A stretch of DNA of 24,000 nucleotides, from positions 1-24,000 of the forward strand of contig JAMOTQ010000014.1 of NCBI GenBank assembly GCA_027068365.1, given 5' to 3'. The first letter of the stretch is position 1; each line of letters starts with the position of its first letter. The position numbers and the translations under genes were made by a program. Shown here one piece after another: positions 1,590-12,719 of this stretch. This DNA comes from Methanocaldococcus sp. (GTDB lineage: Archaea; AGJL01; Methanococci; Methanococcales; Methanocaldococcaceae). Below the pieces are notes generated by a model that saw nothing but the letters and a program-made list of their open reading frames with translations, was not told the DNA's origin and ran no database searches.

Positions 1590-3062
1590 ATGCCAAAAAA
1601 GATTAGTGCAATGGACATTTATAAGTTATTACCAAAAGCAAATTGTAAAAAATGTGGCTACCCATCATGTATGGCATTTGCCGCTAAATTATTAGAAAAA
1701 GAGGCAACGCTTGACCAATGTCCTATATTGGACACACCAAAATTTAAAAAAAATAAAGAGAAAATTTTAGAACTCATTTCTCCACCAGTGAAAGAAGTTT
1801 GGTTTGGAAATGATGAAAGAAAGGCAGTTATGGGTGGAGACGAAGTAATGTATAGATATCAGTTGTCATTCTTCAATCCAACACCAATTGGTATTGACAT
1901 AAGTGATGAGTTGAGTGAAGAGGAGATTAAAAATAGAGCTAAGGAGATAGAAAACTTTGTATTTGAAAGAACTGGGGAAAAGCTAAAATTGGACTTTATT
2001 GTTATAAGGAATGCCTCTGGAAATGCTGAGAAGTTTAAAAAAGCTATTGAGATAGTTGAGAAAGAGACAAAAATGCCTATCTGCATTGCTTCACTAAACC
2101 CAGAGGTTATAAAAGAAGCTTTAAAAGTAGTAAAATCAAAACCAATGGTCTATGCCGCAACAAAAGAAACATTAAATGATTTCATAAAAGTTATTAAAGA
2201 GCTTAAAAAAGAGAAAGATGTTGTTTTAGTTCTATCATCAAACAATGTCAAGGACTTAAAAAACATGGCGGCAAAGTGCTTAGCCAATGGAATTGAGGAT
2301 TTGGTCTTAGAGCCCCATACCTATCCAGAAAATATTGCTGAAACGTTGGATTTAAATGTAATGATTAGAAGGAGTGCAATTGAGAGGGAAGATAAATATC
2401 TTGGATTCCCAATATTGAACCTACCAATCAACGCCTATTATTATGCCTTAAAAAATGATTGCCCAATCTCTGGATTCTTTGAGGATAAAGAAGTTGTTGC
2501 TAAAATGTTCGAGGCAACTATTGCGGCTACATTATTAAACAGATATGCAGATGCTTTAATTATGCATGGGATGGATATTTGGGAGTTAATGCCAGTCCTA
2601 ACATTGAGACAGTGTATTTACACAGACCCAAGAAAACCACAGGCAGTTGAACCCGGCTTGTATCCAATCGGCAACCCAGATGAAAACAGCCCAGTTATAT
2701 TAACAACGAACTTCTCATTAACGTTTTATACTGTTACTGGGGACTTTGAAAAGGATAACGTTACCTGCTGGCTATTGGTTATGGATACTGGGGGAAAGGC
2801 AGTTGATGTTTCAGTTGCAGGGGGACAATATTGTGGAGAGAATGCTAAAAAATTAATTGAAGAGACAGGAATAGCTGAAAAGGTAAATCATAGGATTATA
2901 ATTCTGCCTGCATTAGCGGCTTCGACAAGGGGAGATATTGAAGATAAGACAGGATGGACGTGTGTTATTGGAACGAGAGATTCCTCCCAAGTTGGAGAGT
3001 TTTTAAGAAAGAACTGGGATAGGATATTAAAAGAATGGAAAGAGAAAAATAAAATTAATTAA
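1590..3062 (+). CDS. cdhE: Acetyl-CoA decarbonylase/synthase complex gamma subunit (corrinoid/Fe-S protein large subunit)
   Basis: 490 aa with GGTGA 4 nt upstream. The N-terminal CX2CX4CX16CP cluster motif (CKKCGYPSCMAF...QCP) is typical of the gamma subunit. Operonic with cdhD. MJ0112 from memory. Confidence 0.9.
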   Translation: MPKKISAMDIYKLLPKANCKKCGYPSCMAFAAKLLEKEATLDQCPILDTPKFKKNKEKILELISPPVKEVWFGNDERKAVMGGDEVMYRYQLSFFNPTPIGIDISDELSEEEIKNRAKEIENFVFERTGEKLKLDFIVIRNASGNAEKFKKAIEIVEKETKMPICIASLNPEVIKEALKVVKSKPMVYAATKETLNDFIKVIKELKKEKDVVLVLSSNNVKDLKNMAAKCLANGIEDLVLEPHTYPENIAETLDLNVMIRRSAIEREDKYLGFPILNLPINAYYYALKNDCPISGFFEDKEVVAKMFEATIAATLLNRYADALIMHGMDIWELMPVLTLRQCIYTDPRKPQAVEPGLYPIGNPDENSPVILTTNFSLTFYTVTGDFEKDNVTCWLLVMDTGGKAVDVSVAGGQYCGENAKKLIEETGIAEKVNHRIIILPALAASTRGDIEDKTGWTCVIGTRDSSQVGEFLRKNWDRILKEWKEKNKIN

Positions 3063-3069
3063 TTTAAAC

Positions 3070-3075
3070 TTTTTT
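3070..3075 (+). terminator. Oligo-T tract after cdhE
   Basis: T6 run 8 nt after the cdhE stop. Archaeal terminators are oligo-T tracts. Confidence 0.35.
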
Positions 3076-3099
3076 AGCATATTAATTTTATTCTCAATT

Positions 3100-3431
3100 T
3101 AAAAACTTTTTAAAACTTATCTTTTATTTTTAGGATTTTTATCAAATTTCTAAGGGTAGGGTATTTTAATGATTTTATTTATTTGGATTTATTAAATTAT
3201 AGTGAGTTTTAAAAGAGTTTGATTAATTATTCTTAGTTTGATATTTACTCAATAAATAACTTAGATTTTAGTAATTAAATGTTTTAAAGTTCTTTTTATA
3301 ATTGTAGGGAAAAGTTTAAATATTAGTGAGGGTATATAAATAAAAGTGGTTACCTACCCTTCGACAAAAATGGTATAGAAAAGCTTAAATATTAGAAGTG
3401 AATAAAATAACAACATCTCGAATGATTGCCC
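3100..3431 (+). promoter_or_regulatory. CRISPR leader 1 (long repeat); left boundary approximate
   Basis: Homologous to 9550-9880. The 5' block TTTTTATCAAATTTCTAAGGGTAG(G/A)GTATTTTAATGATTTTATTTATTT and a ~150-nt 3' block are nearly identical, while the middle has diverged. Contains TATATAAATA (3333-3342) and two copies of AAG(T/C)TTAAATATTAG (about 3312-3326 and 3381-3395). Ends directly at repeat 1. Confidence 0.85.
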
Positions 3432-4415
3432 GTTAAAATCAGACCGTTTCGGTATGGAAACAAGATTTTAAAGCTTGCTGATTTTGGTAATGTTAGTTTG
3501 TTAAAATCAGACCGTTTCGGTATGGAAACCCATTCTTGCAGGTATAATTATTATTGTTTTATAAACATAAATGGTTAAAATCAGACCGTTTCGGTATGGA
3601 AACTGAATTTTTGTTGAATTCTACTTATTTAGCTTTCCAATGTGTTAAAATCAGACCGTTTCGGTATGGAAACATGCAAAAGAAACTTACGAAGCTTAAA
3701 AAACAATTAAAAAGTTAAAATCAGACCGTTTCGGTATGGAAACGCAAAGAAAGTAGCAAAGGAAAAAGAACTGGTAGAATATTCGTTAAAATCAGACCGT
3801 TTCGGTATGGAAACTGAATTTTTGTTGAATTCTACTTATTTAGCTTTCCAATGTGTTAAAATCAGACCGTTTCGGTATGGAAACTACTGTCTTTTGGTTA
3901 TCACCCCCGTTATTTGTTGTGTTAAAATCAGACCGTTTCGGTATGGAAACTTAACTTTTATATTGAATACTTTCACTTGGAACTGTTGAAATGTTAAAAT
4001 CAGACCGTTTCGGTATGGAAACTACTGTCTTTTGGTTATCACCCCCGTTATTTGTTGTGTTAAAATCAGACCGTTTCGGTATGGAAACTTAACTTTTATA
4101 TTGAATACTTTCACTTGGAACTGTTGAAATGTTAAAATCAGACCGTTTCGGTATGGAAACTTTCTTAAAAACACTTCTCCTTCAGTTCTACTACGTTAAA
4201 ATCAGACCGTTTCGGTATGGAAACGAACTTTTTATTAAGCTTATTAAGTCATCTAAGTCATTGTTAAAATCAGACCGTTTCGGTATGGAAATATCTATTC
4301 TTAAAATTTTTTTCATTTTTCATATCTCCGTTAAAATCAGACCGTTTCGGTATGGAAATTATGCAGATATTTTCACAATCCTCAACATTAAAAATCTTAA
4401 CGTTAAAATCAGACC
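3432..4415 (+). CRISPR. CRISPR array 1: 14 full 30-nt repeats, 14 spacers (11 unique), plus a 14-nt start of a 15th repeat
   Basis: Repeat GTTAAAATCAGACCGTTTCGGTATGGAAAC. Repeat starts: 3432, 3500, 3574, 3644, 3714, 3785, 3855, 3921, 3993, 4059, 4131, 4195, 4263, 4330, and partial at 4402. Spacers are 34-44 nt. Repeats 13-14 end in T instead of C. Orientation follows from the upstream leader, the ATGGAAAY 3' handle and the degenerate distal end. Confidence 0.97.
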
Positions 4416-4656
4416 TCTTGGGGGTTAAGGTTTAGACATTAATTGGGGCTGAAAGCCCCAACTTAATGGATGTCGGGTATACACACCATAGAGGGGCTAT
4501 GCCCCTCTATTGGGATACTCCCCGTAATTTACACCTCCGAGCGTAAGCGAGGAGGTGTTAGGTTTTGATGAAACTTTTTCTAAAAGTTTCATAACAATAG
4601 GGCGGAGCCCTATGGAATTCAGACCTCTTGGGGGTTAAAGTTTAGACATTAATTGG
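4416..4656 (+). repeat. Array-1 terminal GC-rich hairpin module with a nested 112-bp insertion and a partial second copy
   Basis: 4416-4482 matches 11340-11406 at 60 of 67 positions by hand alignment. 4595-4618 corresponds to 11407-11432. 4483-4594 is extra sequence absent from the array-2 copy. TCAGACC occurs at 4409-4415 and 4619-4625. 4626-4656 repeats 4416-4446 with one mismatch. Confidence 0.8.
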
Positions 4657-4696
4657 AATAATCAAAATAAGTTGTTAAATAAGAAATAGTTATTTT

Positions 4697-5137
4697 TTAT
4701 GTTGTAGATTGGATAATCTTGGCTATTTTGTATGGGATTATTGCTAATATCCCCAATATTAAATATACATTTAAATTGCTAAAAATACTCCAATCTTCCC
4801 AATCCTCAAAACCCAACAGAAATCCCATGGCATTAGATATTAAAAGCAAAAAGGCAATAATTCCAATACCCAAGCCAACAATGGAAGCAGTAAATAAGTA
4901 AGAAACAGCTCTTATATCCTCACTTAAAGCTTTTTTTACCCCTAAAAAGTAAGTTATACCAATTGCCAATAAAGATAATCCACCAAATGCATCCCCTGCA
5001 AATAGTGGTAATTTGATTTCAAATCCCAGTATTGAGCAAATCCCAATTGTTATCTCAATAATTCCAGAAATTGTAAATAAAAGTCCAAATATTAAAGACA
5101 ATGTAGTTATTTTACCCTTTATATCCTTTATATCCAT
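4697..5137 (-). CDS. Small integral membrane protein, function unknown, last gene of the feo operon
   Basis: 146 aa with about four hydrophobic helices. GGTGA lies 6 nt upstream, and the start is 10 nt after the feoB stop. I recognise no family. Confidence 0.6.
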   Translation of the reverse strand: MDIKDIKGKITTLSLIFGLLFTISGIIEITIGICSILGFEIKLPLFAGDAFGGLSLLAIGITYFLGVKKALSEDIRAVSYLFTASIVGLGIGIIAFLLLISNAMGFLLGFEDWEDWSIFSNLNVYLILGILAIIPYKIAKIIQSTT

Positions 5138-5147
5138 AGGAAATCAC

Positions 5148-7157
5148 CTAAAATATTAAATTTCCAATAATTGTGATTGTCAAAGCTACTATGTATGCTA
5201 AAACCATCTCATAGGCAAGAGCAAATACTGCCCATTTCCAACCAATCTCTTGCCTTATAACCCCCAATGTTGCAATGCATGGGAGGTAGATTAAGGAGAA
5301 TGCCATAAATGCATAGGCAGAGACAGGAGTAAAGGCATTAACAATTATATTGGATAAGTTCTCTTCACCAACCCCATAAAGTATGGCTAAGCTTCCAACT
5401 ACTACCTCTTTGGCTATAACTCCAAATAACAGGGCTGAACATGCCTTCCAATCCCAACCCATTGGAGCAAATAAAGGAGCTAATGCTTTTCCAATAACTG
5501 CCGCCCATGAGTTTGATAACAACTCAGGATTTGTTAGAGCTTCTGCCCCTAAGTATCCGGAAGGTCCATAAACTGATAACAACCAAACCAGTATAACTCC
5601 AAATACAATTATAGTTCCTGCCTTTTTTAAAAAGTCATAAACCCTCTCCCAAGTATTTTTTAGAACTACCTTTAAATGTGGAATTTGATATGGAGGAAGT
5701 TCAACAATCAGATATGATGGAGATTCTTTGAATATAAACTTTCTAAATATCTTGGCTATAATTAAAGCTAAAACTACCCCAAGTGCATACATACTTAAAA
5801 CTACAAGCCCTTGATATGCTGAAAAAAATGCTCCGGCAAATAGGGCATAGATTGGCAACCTTGCAGAGCATGACATTAAAGGATTTATTAATATAGTTAA
5901 AATTCTATCTTTTTCATTTTCTATAGTTCTTGTAGCCATTATTGCAGGAACATTACAACCAAAACCCATAACTAATGGTATAATTGCCTTTCCTGGCAAA
6001 CCAAATTTGTTCATAAATCTATCTGCTATATATGGAATCCTTGCCATGTATCCGCTGTCCTCTAAGAATGATATTGCAAAGAATAGGAATGCCAATATTG
6101 GGAAAAACACTAAAACAGCCCCAACTCCTCTAATAATCCCATCAGCCAATAAAGAGGCAATAAATTCATTAGATATGGATGATTTTATAACATCCCCTAA
6201 CAATGAGAATATATAATCAATCATAGCTGAAAATGGAGCTGAAACATCAAATGTAAATTTAAATAACATCCATAAAAATGGAATTAACAGTAAAATTCCT
6301 ACTTTTTCGTCAGTTAAAACATCGTCAAGCATCTGAGTTGTTGTTAGCTTTCCAGATTTCTTTTTAACAACTTCTTTAACAATATTATCAATAACCTTAT
6401 AACGCTCTTCAATTATTCCCAAATCTGCTTCTCCATATTTTTTGGACAACTCTTCCCTTATACTATCTAAAACTGGATTTAATTCATTCCAAATTTTACT
6501 TTTTTTTATTATATCTTCAACATATTTATCATTTTCAAGTAATTTTATAGCCAAATACCTTAAATTATATTTCTTTAAATTTTCATCCTTTTGCAAGATT
6601 GAGATAATCTTTTTAATGTATGGTTCAAAATGTGGATACTTAATATTGTATTTTCTTTTATTTTTTACTTCCTCAGATATTGCCTTTTTTAAATCTTCAA
6701 TGCCAACTTTTTTAATGGCTGAAATTGGAACTACTCTAATCCCCAAAATTTTCTCTAATTTATCCACATCAATGTCTATCCCCAAAGTCCTGGCTAAATC
6801 CATTTTATTTAACGCTAATAATATATTAGCCCCCATTTCCATTAGTTGTAAGGTTAAATATAAATTTCTCTCCAAGGCAGTAGCATCAACAATATCAACA
6901 ACTAAGTCAGGTTTTTCATTTATTATATAATCCCTTGCAACAATTTCATCAATAGAATTGGCTGTTAAGCTATAAACTCCAGGTAAATCAACAACTTTAA
7001 ATTTTTTACCATTATATTCAAATTCCCCCTCTTTTTTTTCAACAGTTACGCCGGGCCAATTACCAATATAAACATTTTCTCCGGTTAGAGTATTAAATAA
7101 GGTAGATTTACCAACATTTGGATTGCCAATTAAGGCAATTTCATATCTATCGCTCAT
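5148..7157 (-). CDS. feoB: Ferrous iron transporter FeoB
   Basis: N-terminal G domain (GNPNVGKST, DLPG, NKMD) followed by a polytopic membrane domain. I place the start at ATG 7157 (MSDRYEIALIG), preceded by GAGGGAGA. The track start at 7175 is a TTG. MJ0566 from memory. Confidence 0.93.
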   Translation of the reverse strand: MSDRYEIALIGNPNVGKSTLFNTLTGENVYIGNWPGVTVEKKEGEFEYNGKKFKVVDLPGVYSLTANSIDEIVARDYIINEKPDLVVDIVDATALERNLYLTLQLMEMGANILLALNKMDLARTLGIDIDVDKLEKILGIRVVPISAIKKVGIEDLKKAISEEVKNKRKYNIKYPHFEPYIKKIISILQKDENLKKYNLRYLAIKLLENDKYVEDIIKKSKIWNELNPVLDSIREELSKKYGEADLGIIEERYKVIDNIVKEVVKKKSGKLTTTQMLDDVLTDEKVGILLLIPFLWMLFKFTFDVSAPFSAMIDYIFSLLGDVIKSSISNEFIASLLADGIIRGVGAVLVFFPILAFLFFAISFLEDSGYMARIPYIADRFMNKFGLPGKAIIPLVMGFGCNVPAIMATRTIENEKDRILTILINPLMSCSARLPIYALFAGAFFSAYQGLVVLSMYALGVVLALIIAKIFRKFIFKESPSYLIVELPPYQIPHLKVVLKNTWERVYDFLKKAGTIIVFGVILVWLLSVYGPSGYLGAEALTNPELLSNSWAAVIGKALAPLFAPMGWDWKACSALLFGVIAKEVVVGSLAILYGVGEENLSNIIVNAFTPVSAYAFMAFSLIYLPCIATLGVIRQEIGWKWAVFALAYEMVLAYIVALTITIIGNLIF

Positions 7158-7380
7158 TATTCTCCCTCTCAACAATTATCTTCATTGCCAAACCCCTGCC
7201 TATTGCTATATTACTACCTCTTGCTGATACTATAACAGGACCATTCTGATTTCTTACAACTTTTATTTTACTTCCAATATTTATTCCCATACTTGTTAAT
7301 CTCTGCATAGCTCCATAGCCAGCATTAATCTCTTTAACAATAACTTCCTCTCCTTCCTTTGCAAATGCTAATGGATACAT
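7147..7380 (-). CDS. feoA: FeoA family small iron-transport protein
   Basis: 77 aa from ATG 7380 (the track uses GTG 7389). FeoA/SH3-like sequence. Its stop overlaps the feoB start by 11 nt. Confidence 0.8.
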   Translation of the reverse strand: MYPLAFAKEGEEVIVKEINAGYGAMQRLTSMGINIGSKIKVVRNQNGPVIVSARGSNIAIGRGLAMKIIVERENNER

Positions 7381-7425
7381 AACCACCACAATATTTATAT
7401 ATGATTAAATGATGATTTAATTATA

Positions 7426-7440
7426 GTTAAAAATTTTAAC
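7426..7440. promoter_or_regulatory. Perfect 15-bp palindrome GTTAAAAATTTTAAC, candidate metalloregulator operator
   Basis: Lies in the 114-bp divergent region between feoA and the DtxR-family gene. A second dyad TTAAAT-N4-ATTTAA is at 7405-7420 and a TATA-like ATATTTATATAT at 7391-7402. Confidence 0.4.
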
Positions 7441-7494
7441 CTCAGTTAAAATAAGATAATACATATAGGAGTATAAAAACTTTTCGGTGACATT

Positions 7495-7872
7495 ATGTCT
7501 AAGAGCATTGAAGATTACTTAGAAAAAATTTATTTATTTACTAAAAAAAATAATAGACCAATAAAAACAACAGAATTGGCTAAATTATTAGATATAAAAC
7601 CATCAGCAGTAACAAACATGGCAAAAAAACTCCAAGAGTTGGGATATGTTAATTATGAGCCATATGTTGGAATAACTTTAACTGAGAAAGGAGAAGAAAA
7701 AGCTAAAAAAGTTTGGGATAAGCATAAAACAATTAAAATGTTTTTAGTTGAATGTTTGGAATTGGATGAAAAAACTGCCTCTGAGGAAGCTTGTAGATTA
7801 GAACACGTATTATCAAATGGAACATTAGAGAGATTAAAGATTTTCATGGAGAAATTAAAAGATAAAGTTTAA
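7495..7872 (+). CDS. DtxR/MntR-family metal-dependent transcriptional regulator (two-domain form, no SH3 domain)
   Basis: 125 aa. The N-terminal SIEDYLEKIY...TTELAKLL...PSAVTNMAKKL winged-HTH is typical of the family. GGTGA lies 5 nt upstream. Divergent from feoAB. MJ0568 from memory. Confidence 0.88.
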   Translation: MSKSIEDYLEKIYLFTKKNNRPIKTTELAKLLDIKPSAVTNMAKKLQELGYVNYEPYVGITLTEKGEEKAKKVWDKHKTIKMFLVECLELDEKTASEEACRLEHVLSNGTLERLKIFMEKLKDKV

Positions 7873-8756
7873 TTTTTTAATTTTAACCCAATTTTCTTCC
7901 CCAATTCAACTGCCTTATCAATCTCATCAATCCCACACTCTATTTCCCCAGATGCCTCTTTTAACTCATCATTTATAACAACCCCTGCTTTTAATTTTAA
8001 TAACTCATTTTTTCCATCATAAAATGCCAAAGCTCCAAATGGAACGCTACAACCTCCTCCAAACTCATTTAATGCAGTCCTCTCACATAAACTCTCTAAG
8101 TATGTCTTTTTATGATTAATATTTTTTAATATTTCCTTCATTTTTTTATCATCCCTTCTACAAGCAACTGCTATAATTCCCTGAGCAGGCGCTGGAAGGA
8201 TATTTAACCTCTTATATCTAAAATAATCATCTAAATTAATCCCCAACCTTATTATTCCCGCCTCAGATAAAACAATGGCATCATAAAAACCTTCCCTCAA
8301 CTTTCTTAACCTTGTATCTACATTCCCCCTCAATAGTTCAAATTTTGCATTTGGGTAGATAAACTTTAAAAAAGCCCTTCTTCTTAAACTTGAAGTGCCT
8401 ATAACTACCTCACTATCTTCATCAAAATCAATATCTTTACCTTTATTCCAAATTAATAAATCATAATAACTATCCCTTTCCAAAACAGCACCAACCATTA
8501 AGTTTTCATTCCAAATAGTTGGAATATCCTTTAAACTATGAACCGCTATATCAATCTCGTTATTTAGCATAGCCAAATCCAATTCTTTTGTAAATACACC
8601 AATGCCAATATCTGAAAGCTTTTTATTTAAAACTCTATCCCCAGTAGTTTTAATTATTTTTATCTCAACATCATAACCAAGATTTTTTAACATCTCAGCT
8701 ACTTTATTTGCTTGATACAACGCTAATTTACTCCCTCTTGTTCCTATCCTAATCAT
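7869..8756 (-). CDS. hemC: Porphobilinogen deaminase (hydroxymethylbilane synthase)
   Basis: MIRIGTRGSKLALYQ N-terminus and overall HemC-like sequence. Start taken at ATG 8756; the track start at 8774 is a TTG with no SD. Its stop overlaps the convergent regulator stop within TTAA. Confidence 0.92.
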   Translation of the reverse strand: MIRIGTRGSKLALYQANKVAEMLKNLGYDVEIKIIKTTGDRVLNKKLSDIGIGVFTKELDLAMLNNEIDIAVHSLKDIPTIWNENLMVGAVLERDSYYDLLIWNKGKDIDFDEDSEVVIGTSSLRRRAFLKFIYPNAKFELLRGNVDTRLRKLREGFYDAIVLSEAGIIRLGINLDDYFRYKRLNILPAPAQGIIAVACRRDDKKMKEILKNINHKKTYLESLCERTALNEFGGGCSVPFGALAFYDGKNELLKLKAGVVINDELKEASGEIECGIDEIDKAVELGKKIGLKLKN

Positions 8757-8760
8757 AATA

Positions 8761-9432
8761 TCATTCCTTATCAACTAATTTTGCCTTTTTTATATTATAA
8801 ACTCCCCATATCTCATGCCATTCAACCTCTGCCTCAACAACTTCTATCCTCTTTTTAAACACCGGGGAGTCAAAAACGAATGTTTCCGCCTCCCCTCCTT
8901 CAAACGCCTTATTTATACCATACTTTTCACAAATATTTAATAATTTATCTATATTATCTTTTGTTATTCTTTTTCCCAACCACTCTTTTCCTAAGCCATA
9001 GGCATAAACTCCTACAATTCTCACGTCAAAAAGAGAACTTGCAGTTCTTAAAACCCATTCAGCATCTTTATGCCACAATGGAGAGAAAGATTTTAATCCA
9101 AGCTCTTTACATATTCTTTCAATCCTTGATTTTTGATAAACGCTCGCAATAGCTCCCGAAACAATTCCCTCAACATCCAACTTTTCAATTCCTTTTTTTA
9201 AGTCCTCCACTTCCTTCTCTTTCTCCCCTTTGGTGTATATTTTTATTAATGGGATATCCACTGCCTTAGAGCAAAGTTCAGTTAAATGCACATTTGGAAT
9301 GTGAAACATATAACTTTCTTTATTTTCACTTTCAACATTTACAAGGTATTTTACATCAAAACCTTCTTTTAACGCCCAGTATAATGCATAATTTGAATCC
9401 TTACCCCCAGAATATAAAACGGCAACTTTCAT
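8761..9432 (-). CDS. PP-loop N-type ATP pyrophosphatase, diphthine-ammonia ligase (Dph6-like)
   Basis: 223 aa with the SGGKDS PP-loop at residues 8-13. Resembles MJ0570 from memory. Confidence 0.8.
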
Positions 9433-9549
9433 ATAATCACCATAACATTATAGCAACTTTAAAAAATATATAGTTTTAAACTTAGATTTTATTATCAACT
9501 TTTAGAGTTAGAACTTTATCTCGTTAGATATAATTTAAAATTAGAAAAA

Positions 9550-9880
9550 CCATTTTAAAATTCGATATACTTCTTTTTAAGCTTTTTTATCAAATTTCTA
9601 AGGGTAGAGTATTTTAATGATTTTATTTATTTAGATGCGTTAAATTATTGGGATTTTTAAAAGATTTTAATTAAATGCTTTCAGTTGATAATTTCCACAA
9701 CAATTAATTTTTATTTTGAAAATTAGAGGTTTTAAAGTTCTTTTTGTAATTGTAGAGAAAAGTTTAAATATTTGTGAGGGTATATAAATAAAGGTAGTTA
9801 TCTACCCTTCGACAGAAATGGTATAGAAAAGCTTAAATATTAGAAGTGAATAAAATAACAATATCTCGAATAATTACCCT
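9550..9880 (+). promoter_or_regulatory. CRISPR leader 2 (long repeat); left boundary approximate
   Basis: Homolog of leader 1, with the same TATATAAATA (9781-9790) and AAGCTTAAATATTAG boxes at the same offsets from repeat 1. Confidence 0.85.
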
Positions 9881-11455
9881 GTTAAAATCAGACCGTTTCG
9901 GTATGGAAATTATACAAACAAAACTAATTACTAAAAACGAGTGGCAGTTAAAATCAGACCGTTTCGGTATGGAAATAATGATATGAAGGATTTTATGAAT
10001 GATGCTTTGAGTCAAATGCCTGTTAAAATCAGACCGTTTCGGTATGGAAATTACGTGGTTTTTAAGTTAGGATAATTGACTAATAAGTTAAAATCAGACC
10101 GTTTCGGTATGGAAATCTTTATTTTTTTATCTTCTTTAAGTTATTTTTTATCGTGTTAAAATCAGACCGTTTCGGTATGGAAATTGGTTTTTATTAGTTG
10201 ATTGTATAGTTCTTTTGCATCATTAGTTAAAATCAGACCGTTTCGGTATGGAAATTTGGAACATAAAAAATTAGTTTTAGATGCTTATAAGGAGTTAAAA
10301 TCAGACAGTTTCGGTATGGAAATTTATAAAATAATATCTTTTTTAATCACAAACTATTTTGAGTGTTAAAATCAGACCGTTTCGGTATGGAAATACTCTA
10401 ATTTTTGGAATTTGATACAATTGCCTCCAGATGTTAAAATCAGACCGTTTCGGTATGGAAATACTCACCGAACTAAAAGACCAATACATAACAGAATTAG
10501 GTTAAAATCAGACCGTTTCGGTATGGAAATTTTATAATTACATAAAAACTATGCTCGATATTCCATTCGTTAAAATCAGACCGTTTCGGTATGGAAATAC
10601 ATTAGAAGAAATTTGTGGATGTCAAGTTTGGGATGTTAAAATCAGACCGTTTCGGTATGGAAATTACTTGATAATGCAAAATCAACCAACTCCATAAAAC
10701 CGTTAAAATCAGACCGTTTCGGTATGGAAATTTTTGTAAAATCTTAGCTAATTTATTTTTACACATTTCGTTAAAATCAGACCGTTTCGGTATGGAAATA
10801 TCGGCATAGAATCCACAATCAAAGCAATACATTAGCCTCGAGTTAAAATCAGACCGTTTCGGTATGGAAATAATTTTCAAAATGGATAGGAAATTTAATC
10901 ATAAAATTTGTTAAAATCAGACCGTTTCGGTATGGAAATAAAATTTCAGAAGTTTTAGAACAATATGCAACTATTGAAGAGTTAAAATCAGACCGTTTCG
11001 GTATGGAAATTACTGGAAGGTTTATACAATGATAGTTACAGTATTATTATCTTTGTTAAAATCAGACCGTTTCGGTATGGAAATTAGTTTGTGGCAGAAT
11101 ACTTTAAATCTTGCGTTAATTGGTTAAAATCAGACCGTTTCGGTATGGAAATATAAATATTGATTATTTAATAAGAAATAATCAAGAAAGTTAAAATCAG
11201 ACCGTTTCGGTATGGAAATCACAAAATACTAAGGAAGAATATGAGGTTTTGAATGGAGTTAAAATCAGACCGTTTCGGTATGGAAATTAGCTTCCAATAC
11301 TGCCTGGTGAGCATCTTTCTTTAATGTTAAAATCAGACCTCTCGGAGGTTAAAACTTAGACATTAATTGGGGATGAAAGCCCCAACTTAATGGATGTGGG
11401 GTATACCAATAGGGGGTCTCCCCCTATGGAATTCAGACCGTTTCGGTATGGAAAT
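9881..11455 (+). CRISPR. CRISPR array 2: 21 full repeats, 21 unique spacers, plus a 22nd repeat split by a 93-bp module
   Basis: Repeat GTTAAAATCAGACCGTTTCGGTATGGAAAT. Repeat starts: 9881, 9947, 10022, 10087, 10155, 10226, 10294, 10365, 10433, 10501, 10569, 10635, 10702, 10770, 10842, 10910, 10981, 11055, 11123, 11190, 11258, and 11326 (split). Spacers are 35-45 nt. Repeat 7 carries C to A at 10307. No spacer is shared with array 1. Confidence 0.97.
11340..11432 (+). repeat. Array-2 terminal GC-rich two-hairpin module inside the last repeat
   Basis: Located between the repeat 5' part (11326-11339) and TCAGACC plus the repeat 3' part (11433-11455). Stems at 11361-11392 (13 bp with one bulge) and 11409-11427 (8 bp). 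Confidence 0.8.
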
Positions 11456-11479
11456 AAAAGTTGTTATCTTATAATATGC

Positions 11480-11485
11480 TTTTTT
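11480..11485 (+). terminator. Oligo-T tract downstream of array 2
   Basis: T6 run 25 nt after the last repeat fragment. A second run TTTGTTT follows. Confidence 0.3.
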
Positions 11486-11528
11486 ATGATTTGTTTAAAA
11501 AATTACTTAAAAAAAGAAAAAGTGAATT

Positions 11529-12719
11529 TTAAAACTTTTTAAACATATTCTCAATGATTCTTGCATACGCAGGTCTTGTTATAAATATTCCTATTAAAAC
11601 CCCTGCTATTGTAGTTATTGCAAATCCTTTTAACATTCCAACCCCAAGCACAAATAAAGGCAACATAGCGGCAATAGATGTTGATGCTGAGGCAAATATT
11701 ATAAAGAAAGCTCTTTTAATACTTGCTCTTATTTTTCCAGCTCCTTTCTTTAAAGCTTCATCAGTTATAACTATTTGGTTATCCACTCCCGTCCCAACTG
11801 CGGCAATAATCCCAGCTATTGAAGGTAAATCCAATTTCCAACTTATTAAAGATGCGAAGCCCAATATAATGATAATTTCTGATAAGCAGGTTATTAAAAT
11901 TGGTAGTGCTATCTTTGGCTGTTTGTATCTTACACTGACAATTATTCCAACAGCAACAAATGCCAATAATAAAGCAATGGCAGTTCCTTTTAAGAATTCC
12001 TTACCAAATTCTGGGGATACAGTTGAGATATATTCGATATTCAGTTTTACAGGTAAAGCTCCGGATTTTAGAGCTGAATAAATAGCCATTGCCTCATCAA
12101 TTTCCTCTTTTGTTGGAGGGTAGCCACCAACGGTAATAACCTGTTTTGGATGAGGTCTTCCATCTGCTAAGTCAGGGGATAAGACAGGAGCTGAGATTAG
12201 CTTTCCATCCATATACAACTCAACTTTATGATATGCCTTTCCCTTAGCAACTTCGGCAAATTTCTTAGCTCCTTCTAATGTTAATTCAAAAGGAACACCA
12301 TAAGCCCAGTTATCTCCTTGTGGAATCTTTGTTGGGGGTTCAACAGATTTAACATCTTTTCCAGTATAAGCGGTTATATTATCAATTTTTGCTTCAAAGA
12401 CCCCCTGTTCCATTAGAACTTTTTTTATTCTATCAACGTCGCAACTCTTAGGAATCATAACAACAATTTCATCATTTCCTCTTGGATAAACGGTTATATC
12501 GCTTAAACCATTTGCATTTAACCTCTTTTCAATAATATCAACAGTTAATTGTATCTCCTCATCAGTCATTGGTCGCTCTGCTTTTAAGACAATAACTGTC
12601 CCTCCACTTAAATCAATCCCATAATCAAGCCCTTTAAATACGATTAAAAGCACAGATAAAGTAACGAATAATATTAATAGTAGTATTCTTTTATCTTTTA
12701 GTAATTTTGATATTTCCAT
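11529..12719 (-). CDS. secD: Protein-export membrane protein SecD
   Basis: 396 aa. N-terminal TM helix followed by GIDLSGGT, a periplasmic-type domain, and a C-terminal six-helix region with VGTGVDNQIVITDE. GGTGA lies 5 nt upstream. Confidence 0.82.
   Translation of the reverse strand: MEISKLLKDKRILLLILFVTLSVLLIVFKGLDYGIDLSGGTVIVLKAERPMTDEEIQLTVDIIEKRLNANGLSDITVYPRGNDEIVVMIPKSCDVDRIKKVLMEQGVFEAKIDNITAYTGKDVKSVEPPTKIPQGDNWAYGVPFELTLEGAKKFAEVAKGKAYHKVELYMDGKLISAPVLSPDLADGRPHPKQVITVGGYPPTKEEIDEAMAIYSALKSGALPVKLNIEYISTVSPEFGKEFLKGTAIALLLAFVAVGIIVSVRYKQPKIALPILITCLSEIIIILGFASLISWKLDLPSIAGIIAAVGTGVDNQIVITDEALKKGAGKIRASIKRAFFIIFASASTSIAAMLPLFVLGVGMLKGFAITTIAGVLIGIFITRPAYARIIENMFKKF

What the first reader, a model, noticed from the sequence alone, without database searches (positions are those of the whole stretch)
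3152..3361. Both CRISPR leaders carry a 9-bp inverted repeat 201 bp apart, with a compensatory double substitution
Leader 1 has AAGGGTAGG (3152-3160) and CCTACCCTT (3353-3361). Leader 2 has AAGGGTAGA (9600-9608) and TCTACCCTT (9801-9809). The ninth position changed G to A in one arm and C to T in the other, which preserves complementarity. The start-to-start spacing is exactly 201 nt in both leaders, even though the sequence between the arms has diverged substantially. The downstream arm lies 11-20 nt after the TATATAAATA box, roughly at the expected transcription start, so the upstream arm is probably not in the same transcript. This favours a DNA-level explanation: paired binding sites for a dimeric or looping factor (a leader-binding protein for adaptation or array transcription control), or cruciform or looped architecture. 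An RNA stem is less likely.
Basis: partly seen in the sequence, partly recalled or inferred. Interest (0 to 1): 0.62.

Follow-up and report, generated by a model that had tools for sequence, protein, structure and literature searches.

The report
Inverted motif pair in CRISPR leaders
The two complementary 9-mers are real, but the "compensatory" change is a coincidence; what is conserved is a 10-bp motif (TTCNAAGGGT) present twice in opposite orientation inside a length-locked CRISPR leader, most likely a pair of DNA sites read by protein and not an RNA stem.

Summary
The sequences and coordinates are exact. The finder's key argument, a compensatory G-C to A-T change at arm position 9, fails. 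In the 14 leader copies of this genome only 4 keep 9/9 pairing, and positions 8-9 vary independently. In 117 leaders from 13 congeners those two pairs are unpaired in 63 and 69 of 115 distinct rows.

The 201-nt spacing is not specific to the arms. Every landmark in the leader keeps its distance across species.

A shifted motif pair is conserved: TTCNAAGGGT ... ACCCTTNGAA, 218 bp outer to outer, at about -284 and -67 from repeat 1. It occurs in two genera. A strict pattern gave 37 leader copies in 8 genomes and none for the reversed control. Complementarity as such is not selected: 74.3% of cells pair against 73.1% after shuffling, G.T roughly equals A.C among mismatches, and RNAalifold finds 0 pairs.

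The best reading is two copies of one protein-read DNA motif in a folded, length-constrained leader. The proximal copy overlaps a predicted promoter-proximal element and start site. A 2026 paper catalogued Methanococcales leader motifs and noted inverted motif pairs in Pyrococcus leaders.

The parts
3063..3431 (+). CRISPR leader 1 (Methanocaldococcus 'long repeat' type), directly upstream of array 1
   Evidence: Homologous to 13 other leader copies in the genome at 82-90% identity. Repeat 1 starts at 3432.
3148..3157 (+). Distal copy of the conserved leader motif TTCNAAGGGT (here TTCTAAGGGT). The finder's upstream arm 3152-3160 overlaps it by 6 bp.
   Evidence: Read directly. It is the most conserved block of the leader across 13 genomes, with information content 1.4-2.0 bits at every position except N. 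It lies 284 bp before repeat 1.
3356..3365 (+). Proximal copy of the motif in inverted orientation (ACCCTTCGAC; the genus consensus is ACCCTTNGAA). The finder's downstream arm 3353-3361 overlaps it by 6 bp.
   Evidence: Outer-to-outer span 3148-3365 is 218 bp, the same span as in the strict pattern matches in 8 other genomes.
9596..9605 (+). Distal motif copy of leader 2 (TTCTAAGGGT)
   Evidence: Offset of 6448 from leader 1 (family D4).
9804..9813 (+). Proximal motif copy of leader 2 (ACCCTTCGAC), inverted
   Evidence: Span 9596-9813 is 218 bp.
3307..3322 (+). P1: BRE-like GGGAAAAG plus TATA-like TTTAAATA. Predicted TSS about 3346, which would place the proximal motif at about +11 to +20 of that transcript.
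   Evidence: Sequence. Spacing rule of 23+/-2 nt from the TATA 3' edge to the TSS, from Zhang, Li & Olsen 2009 (PMC2699501). Prediction only.
3333..3340 (+). P2: TATATAAA box (the finder's TATATAAATA), with a poor BRE. Predicted TSS 3364+/-2, so the proximal motif would cover the proximal promoter element and initiator (about -8 to +2).
   Evidence: Prediction only.
3377..3391 (+). P3: AGAAAAG plus CTTAAATA, the best BRE+TATA match. Predicted TSS about 3415, 17 nt before repeat 1. Probably motif M5 of Patel et al. 2026.
   Evidence: P1 and P3 form a roughly 20-nt direct repeat, GAAAAG[T/C]TTAAATATTAG.
3432..4359 (+). CRISPR array 1 (14 repeats of GTTAAAATCAGACCGTTTCGGTATGGAAA[C/T])
   Evidence: Rfam CRISPR-DR13 hits.
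9511..9880 (+). CRISPR leader 2
9881..11287 (+). CRISPR array 2

Best explanation
The two 'arms' are two copies, in opposite orientation, of one conserved 10-bp DNA motif, TTCNAAGGGT. They sit at fixed positions, about -284 and -67 from the first repeat and 218 bp outer to outer, inside a CRISPR leader whose whole length is locked.

Shown: the motif, its inverted duplication, its conservation in two genera of Methanocaldococcaceae, its restriction to leaders, and the absence of selection for base-pairing as such.

Inferred: the same DNA-binding factor, or the same surface of a folded leader-protein complex, reads both copies. The fixed spacing reflects a leader that works as a folded, probably histone-wrapped, piece of DNA. 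This would resemble the Pyrococcus furiosus leader, where histones and up to about 400 bp of leader promote Cas1-Cas2 integration, and type I-F leaders, where two inverted motifs flanking an IHF bend dock the integrase.

The proximal copy also overlaps the predicted promoter-proximal element and start site of one of three tandem leader promoters. The pair could therefore serve transcription control instead of, or as well as, spacer integration.

The G-C to A-T 'compensatory' change between leaders 1 and 2 lies in the variable flank of the motif and is coincidental.
For: Own-genome paralogs: the core AAGGGT/ACCCTT is nearly invariant in 14 leaders, while positions 8-9 of the finder's arm vary independently.

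Genus-wide (117 leaders, 13 genomes): both arms give the same logo, T T C N A A G G G T, with low information at N and from +7 outward. The information profiles mirror each other with r=0.56, against -0.38 to 0.43 in slid registers.

The strict pattern TTCNAAGGG-N(185-210)-CCCTTNGAA gave 37 leader copies in 8 genomes of genera g1 and g3, nearly all spanning 217-218 bp. The reversed control gave 0 in all 40 genomes. Genus g3 leaders keep the pair and the spacing although BLAST aligns only their first ~90 nt.

The motif is essentially confined to leaders: TTCTAAGGGT occurs 15 times against 2.7 expected.

The whole leader is length-locked.

The genome encodes three histone-fold proteins and at least two Cas1.

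Literature: conserved Methanococcales leader motifs reach about 300 bp upstream, most without an assigned function. P. furiosus leader motifs T22 and T3 are inverted repeats of each other. Histones fold that leader for integration, and inverted motifs in I-F leaders dock the integrase (PMC13748974).
Against: G010 and G011 keep the distal copy but have GGGGGGTCGTA at the proximal position, so the pair is dispensable in some lineages.

In the M. jannaschii-sized genome G009, 10 of 17 leaders carry ATCCTT in the proximal copy. In this genome the proximal copy ends in GAC instead of GAA.

No 10-10.5-bp sequence periodicity, such as strong histone positioning might give, was seen (a weak test).

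Patel et al. found that scrambling distal P. furiosus motifs had only modest effects on integration.
Confidence: 0.55

Rival explanations
1. Independent constraints. The proximal block is conserved only as the promoter-proximal/initiator region of a leader promoter, and the distal block for an unrelated reason. Their complementarity is a frozen accident, or the relic of an ancient inverted duplication (for example two back-to-back promoters), with no present interaction or shared reader.
For: Pairing is explained by column conservation alone: 74.3% paired against 73.1% after shuffling. The proximal copy coincides with the predicted -8..+2 region of promoter P2. The distal copy is retained in G010/G011 without its partner. 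A TATA-like AAATA block lies about 20 nt inside the distal copy on the minus strand.
Against: A G/C-rich inverted match of 9-10 bp between two blocks of one leader is improbable by chance (P about 0.0014 for a 9-mer). The two logos share the same free position N and the same boundaries. The M. jannaschii proximal promoter element carries little information (1.84 bits over 10 nt; PMC2699501), far less than the near-invariant ACCCTT seen here.
Confidence: 0.25
2. RNA helix. A transcript spanning both arms folds so that they pair and close a roughly 190-nt domain.
For: The arms are the most G/C-rich part of the leader. A few lineage-level double changes exist: T-A vs G-C at the N position, A-T vs C-G at +7, and 4 leaders with G-C at +1. 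A weak TATA-like TTTTTATC lies just upstream of the distal arm.
Against: RNAalifold predicts 0 pairs on 117 leaders and Rfam finds nothing in the leaders. Covariation score is 0.131 against 0.123 after shuffling, reached in 56/500 shuffles. Within genomes the 'covarying' positions change on one side only. G.T mismatches (41) roughly equal A.C mismatches (39), so there is no wobble tolerance (summed). All three good promoters lie downstream of the distal arm. A 21% G+C segment is unlike the G+C-rich structured RNAs of hyperthermophiles (my own knowledge: Klein, Misulovin & Eddy 2002).
Confidence: 0.04
3. Invertible promoter switch (inverton, fimS-like). A site-specific recombinase flips the 198-bp promoter-bearing segment between the inverted repeats and so turns array transcription on or off.
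For: Short inverted repeats flank a segment that contains promoters P1 and P2 pointing at the array. The arms are conserved as sequence, as recombinase core sites would be.
Against: All of about 130 leader copies examined in 15 genomes are collinear across both arms, and none has the inner segment inverted. Promoter P3 lies outside the segment and would not be switched.
Confidence: 0.04
4. Terminal inverted repeats of a small mobile element (MITE-like) embedded in, or forming, the leader.
For: A 218-bp unit bounded by 10-bp inverted repeats. Leaders are multi-copy and dispersed, with 14 or more per genome.
Against: Homology between leader copies runs about 80 nt beyond the distal arm and 67 nt beyond the proximal arm up to the repeat, so the arms are internal to the repeated unit. 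The motif pair was never found apart from a leader in genera g1 and g3.
Confidence: 0.03

Closest known systems
Conserved Methanococcales CRISPR leader motifs M1-M14 (Patel et al., Nucleic Acids Res 2026, PMC13748974)
   Same: Same kind of leaders: 193 non-redundant Methanococcales leaders, with motifs up to about 300 bp upstream in the order M3, M1, M7, M2, M5 (BRE-TATA), M6 (repeat-adjacent). Most have no assigned function. The distal copy at -284 and the proximal copy at -67 fall inside that range and very probably lie within two of these motifs.
   Different: The motif sequences are in supplements that are not held, so the correspondence is unverified. The main text does not say that any two Methanococcales motifs are inverted copies of each other.
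Pyrococcus furiosus / Thermococcales leader motifs T22 and T3
   Same: [quoted passage not shown] Their CGAAA/TTTCG cores loosely resemble the outer part of the arms here (AAATTTCGAA / TTCGAAAAT in several species).
   Different: They lie at -472 and -316, about 156 bp apart, and each is itself palindromic. Scrambling T3 had no clear effect on integration. Homology to the motif here was not tested.
Inverted-repeat motifs flanking the distal IHF site in type I-F CRISPR leaders (Santiago-Frangos et al., as cited in PMC13748974)
   Same: Two leader motifs in inverted orientation are brought side by side by protein-induced DNA bending, forming 'parallel DNA pillars' that recruit the integrase. The phasing is fixed.
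   Different: These are bacterial and use IHF, not histones. The motifs are within about 130 bp of the array and much closer to each other. No structural or biochemical data exist for the archaeal pair.
'Long repeat' (LR) leader elements of Methanocaldococcus jannaschii (Bult et al. 1996; summarised in Haft et al. 2005, PMC1282333)
   Same: The leaders in this window are members of that family (68-76% identity to copies in G009, whose chromosome length equals that of M. jannaschii).
   Different: Haft et al. describe the LR only as a unit. I did not read Bult et al. 1996 and saw no mention of the internal inverted motif pair in the papers I read.

Membership tests
CRISPR leader (Methanocaldococcus LR type) | Lies directly upstream of the first repeat of an array and is shared by the arrays of the genome | tested here: met
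   14 homologous copies, each ending at a repeat GTTAAAATCAGACC...
CRISPR leader (Methanocaldococcus LR type) | AT-rich and carries a BRE/TATA promoter pointing at the array | tested here: met
   21% G+C. Three BRE/TATA-like elements at 3307-3391, by sequence only; no TSS data.
Paired inverted leader motifs that act in folded leader DNA (I-F IHF-flanking motifs; Thermococcales T22/T3) | Two conserved motifs that are inverted copies of each other | tested here: met
   TTCNAAGGGT / ACCCTTNGAA with mirrored logos
Paired inverted leader motifs that act in folded leader DNA (I-F IHF-flanking motifs; Thermococcales T22/T3) | Fixed spacing/phasing across divergent leaders | tested here: met
   217-218 bp outer span in nearly all strict matches in two genera. 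But all leader landmarks are equally fixed.
Paired inverted leader motifs that act in folded leader DNA (I-F IHF-flanking motifs; Thermococcales T22/T3) | A DNA-bending or wrapping protein binds between or over the motifs | not testable with these tools
   Histone-fold genes are present. The sequence periodicity test was inconclusive.
Paired inverted leader motifs that act in folded leader DNA (I-F IHF-flanking motifs; Thermococcales T22/T3) | Mutating the motifs lowers site-specific spacer integration | not testable with these tools
   Needs in-vitro integration assays
Conserved RNA helix | Compensatory changes keep pairing more often than chance | tested here: not met
   Covariation 0.131 vs 0.123 (56/500 shuffles); 74.3% vs 73.1% paired; variation is one-sided within genomes
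Conserved RNA helix | Consensus fold predicted from the alignment | tested here: not met
   RNAalifold: 0 pairs
Conserved RNA helix | Both arms lie in one transcript | not testable with these tools
Predicted start sites lie downstream of the distal arm.
Inverton (fimS-type invertible promoter) | Inverted repeats flank a promoter-bearing segment | tested here: met
   P1 and P2 lie between the arms
Inverton (fimS-type invertible promoter) | Both orientations of the segment occur | tested here: not met
   About 130 assembled leader copies are all collinear. Reads were not examined.
MITE / terminal inverted repeats | Inverted repeats sit at the ends of the repeated unit | tested here: not met
   Homology extends about 80 nt and 67 nt beyond the arms
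Cruciform-forming palindrome | Short spacer between the arms | tested here: not met
   The spacer is about 190 nt. That extrusion needs a short spacer is established knowledge, not tested here.

The most novel reading that the evidence does not exclude
The two TTCNAAGGGT copies, held exactly 218 bp apart, are brought side by side by histone wrapping of the leader. Together they form the docking platform for the Cas1-Cas2(-Cas4) integrase or a dedicated leader-binding protein. This would be an archaeal, histone-based counterpart of the IHF-made 'DNA pillars' of type I-F leaders, and it would couple spacer integration to the promoter that the proximal copy overlaps.
Probability: 0.2. Interest if true: 0.6.

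Novelty: new member of a known kind. Interest (0 to 1): 0.33.

Why it matters
If both copies are read by one factor in a folded leader, they give a precise handle for dissecting how archaeal leaders direct spacer integration or array transcription. There are two 10-bp sites and one fixed distance to mutate. M. jannaschii-type genomes, with 15-25 near-identical leaders each, would be a natural system for this. The question was opened experimentally only recently for Pyrococcus. As it stands, the finding is a refinement of known conserved leader motifs and not a new mechanism. The specific covariation claim that made it look special does not hold.

Tried and rejected
Smollett et al. 2017 (M. jannaschii TSS and ChIP) is not held under its DOI or PMC id. 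Li/Olsen 2008 has nothing on leaders.
2. RNAalifold on 117 leaders gave 0 pairs. Rfam with permissive thresholds on 2900-11600 found only CRISPR-DR13 repeats and noise.
3. Periodicity of G/C, AA/TT, AAA and TTT along 110 leaders showed no peak at 10-10.5 bp. This is inconclusive, because homologous sequences amount to a single sample.
4. Genome-wide search for extra motif copies, for example at cas promoters, found no excess outside leaders.
5. Supplements of Patel et al. 2026, which hold the motif logos, are not held, so the arms could not be assigned to named motifs.
6. Considered and rejected: cruciform (spacer too long), MITE termini (arms are internal to the unit), inverton (no flipped copy among about 130), and a helix with G.U tolerance (G.T roughly equals A.C).
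7. The g2 hits of the strict pattern (G017, G031, G032, G038) lie in G/C-richer sequence that is conserved between those genomes and does not look like a leader. I treated them as unrelated and did not follow them up.

Full report
WHAT IS THERE

The window is contig C14:1-24000 of a 1.38-Mb, 31% G+C draft genome. It carries two CRISPR arrays with the repeat GTTAAAATCAGACCGTTTCGGTATGGAAA[C/T] (Rfam CRISPR-DR13). The leaders are about 370 bp long and homologous.

The genome is a Methanocaldococcus. One relative, G009, has a chromosome of 1,664,970 bp, which I recognise as the length of the M. jannaschii chromosome. The control genome M. jannaschii also rings in the family searches. These leaders are the 'long repeat' (LR) elements first described in M. 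jannaschii (Bult et al. 1996, as summarised by Haft et al. 2005, PMC1282333).

THE OBSERVATION

On chance, a perfect inverted repeat of 9 bp or more is expected in 87-90% of simulated leaders of this composition. Both leaders also hold 11-bp AT-rich inverted repeats. So an inverted 9-mer as such means little here. One with five G/C is rare (about 0.0014 per leader, a post hoc figure).

THE COVARIATION CLAIM

- The core AAGGGT/ACCCTT is almost invariant.
- Positions 8 and 9 of the arm are not. Position 9 reads G-C once (leader 1), A-T 8 times, G.T 3 times, T.T twice and A.C once.
- Only 4 of 14 leaders pair 9/9.
- C at the downstream position occurs in two leaders, one facing G and one facing A. 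The chance of at least one G/C meeting under independence is 0.51.

I then collected 106 further leaders from 12 congeners and aligned 117 in all (A1). On the 13 possible pairs, 74.3% of cells are paired against 73.1% after shuffling partners within columns. The covariation score is 0.131 against 0.123, reached in 56 of 500 shuffles. The finder's two outer pairs are unpaired in 63 and 69 of 115 distinct rows.

Double changes exist at three other positions:
- T-A against G-C at the position I call N.
- A-T against C-G at +7.
- Four leaders with G-C at +1.

They separate whole clades, which means very few events. Within genomes the same positions change on one side only. G015, G006 and G008 show T/G/A facing a fixed C. 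G001 shows T/C/A/G facing a fixed T. G012 has A.C in half of its leaders. Mismatches of the G.T kind (41) and the A.C kind (39) are equally common (my sum of the per-position counts), so wobble pairs are not favoured.

THE SPACING CLAIM

The spacing of 201-202 holds in all 14 own-genome leaders and stays within 201-205 in almost all other copies. But leaders 1 and 2 are 85% identical without a gap. Every landmark I measured keeps its distance from the upstream arm across species: +56, +96/97, +187 (TATA), +209 (downstream arm) and +283 to +286 (first repeat). The whole leader is length-locked, and the arm pair is not special in this respect.

WHAT IS CONSERVED INSTEAD

The conserved inverted repeat is shifted outward by four bases relative to the finder's arms: TTCNAAGGGT ... 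ACCCTTNGAA.
- It is perfect over 11 bp in G005, G012 and G016 (TTCGAAGGGTC/GACCCTTCGAA).
- It is perfect over 10-11 bp in G001 and G009 (TTTCTAAGGGT/ACCCTTAGAAA).
- In this genome it is interrupted: TTCTAAGGGT faces ACCCTTCGAC.

With genomes weighted equally, both arms give the same logo. Information is low at N and from +7 outward. The two information profiles correlate at r=0.56 in register, against -0.38 to 0.43 when slid.

The strict pattern TTCNAAGGG-N(185-210)-CCCTTNGAA gave 37 leader copies in 8 genomes of two genera, almost all spanning 217-218 bp. The reversed control pattern gave none in 40 genomes. In genus g3, only the first ~90 nt of the leader still align by BLAST. Even so, both copies, the spacing and the TATATAAAT box 15 nt before the proximal copy are kept. 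In this genome TTCTAAGGGT occurs 15 times against 2.7 expected, essentially only in leaders.

Limits on this picture:
- G010 and G011 keep the distal copy but have GGGGGGTCGTA at the proximal position.
- 10 of 17 G009 leaders have ATCCTT in the proximal copy.
- Overall, only 34 of 117 leaders have a perfect run of 9 bp or more through the GGG/CCC core.

Two copies of a sequence motif are therefore what is kept, and complementarity is not.

POSITION RELATIVE TO PROMOTERS

In M. jannaschii the TATA box is TWTATATA, and its 3' edge lies 23+/-2 nt before the start site in 94% of mapped promoters. A 10-nt proximal promoter element (PPE) lies just upstream of the start (Zhang, Li & Olsen 2009, PMC2699501).

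The leader has three tandem BRE/TATA-like elements:
- P1, 3307-3322, predicted start about 3346.
- P2, 3333-3340 (the finder's box), poor BRE, predicted start 3364+/-2.
- P3, 3377-3391, the best BRE+TATA match, predicted start about 3415, 17 nt before repeat 1.

P1 and P3 are a 20-nt direct repeat. If P2 fires, the proximal copy (3356-3365) covers about -8 to +2 of P2. If P1 fires, it covers about +11 to +20. It lies upstream of P3. The distal copy lies upstream of all three. These are predictions only.

HOW IT MOST LIKELY WORKS

RNA pairing is disfavoured by the points above, by RNAalifold finding no pair at all, and by the 21% G+C of the segment in a hyperthermophile. A cruciform needs a short spacer. 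Terminal repeats of a mobile element are excluded because homology between copies runs well beyond both arms. An invertible promoter is not supported, because about 130 assembled copies are all collinear.

That leaves a DNA-level reading, in which one factor or one complex reads the same 10-bp motif twice at a fixed distance in a leader that functions as folded DNA. This fits recent work (Patel et al. 2026, PMC13748974):
- Methanococcales leaders have conserved motifs up to about 300 bp upstream (order M3, M1, M7, M2, M5 = BRE-TATA, M6), most without a known function.
- P. furiosus leader motifs T22 and T3 are inverted repeats of each other.
- Histones bind the P. furiosus leader, and up to 403 bp of it promotes Cas1-Cas2 integration.

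This genome encodes three histone-fold proteins and at least two Cas1. Whether the pair serves integration, transcription control or both is inference. A rival I cannot dismiss (0.25) is that the two blocks are conserved for unrelated reasons and are complementary only by descent from an old inverted duplication.

NOVELTY AND VERDICT

Its headline argument is not supported. The general conclusion, DNA and not RNA, is supported for other reasons.

The conserved inverted motif pair probably lies within published but functionally unassigned leader motifs. The inverted relation is not mentioned for Methanococcales in the main text of that paper, and I could not check its supplements. I rate it a new member of a known kind and of modest interest. 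Earlier notes of this scan on the same window concern the array ends and hairpin elements, not the leaders.

Noticed in passing
window 3307-3391 (leader 1); same layout at 9755-9839 (leader 2): There are three tandem BRE/TATA-like elements in the leader. P1 (GGGAAAAG+TTTAAATA) and P3 (AGAAAAG+CTTAAATA) form a roughly 20-nt direct repeat, GAAAAG[T/C]TTAAATATTAG, 69 bp apart. Which of the three fires is unknown.
   Followed up: partly
window about 9518-9524 and 9863-9869; also in most other leader copies (alignment): TATCTCG occurs near both ends of the leader unit (TTTATCTCGTTAGAT at the distal end, ATATCTCGAATAAT about 12 nt before repeat 1). This is a short direct repeat bounding the roughly 350-bp unit. 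Its meaning is unknown.
   Followed up: no
L047-L065 (G010) and L061, L064, L069, L086 (G011), at the position homologous to window 3356-3366: In two congeners, 11 nt at the proximal-motif position read GGGGGGTCGTA instead of ACCCTTCGAAC. Both flanks stay collinear and the distal motif stays intact. The new G-run could pair with a CCCC 11 nt downstream.
   Followed up: partly
L101, L112, L123 (G005), G012 and G016 leaders, downstream of the proximal motif: These species replace the P3 module (GAAAAGCTTAAATATTAG) with a different one (TATAACCCCTATATAAAGGAG). Leaders are therefore modular downstream of the proximal motif.
   Followed up: no
L132 (G008:C1:935624-936088): One leader carries an 11-nt tandem duplication of the TATA region (TATAAATGAAT twice), which lengthens the arm spacing to 214. 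Two G006 leaders (L059, L068) have deletions of 9-10 and 19 nt near the distal motif. These are rare exceptions to the length lock.
   Followed up: no
G017:C1:181428-181637 and matches in G031, G032, G038: The strict motif-pair pattern also hits one conserved, G/C-richer locus in genus g2, with a span of about 210 bp. It does not look like a leader and was not examined.
   Followed up: no
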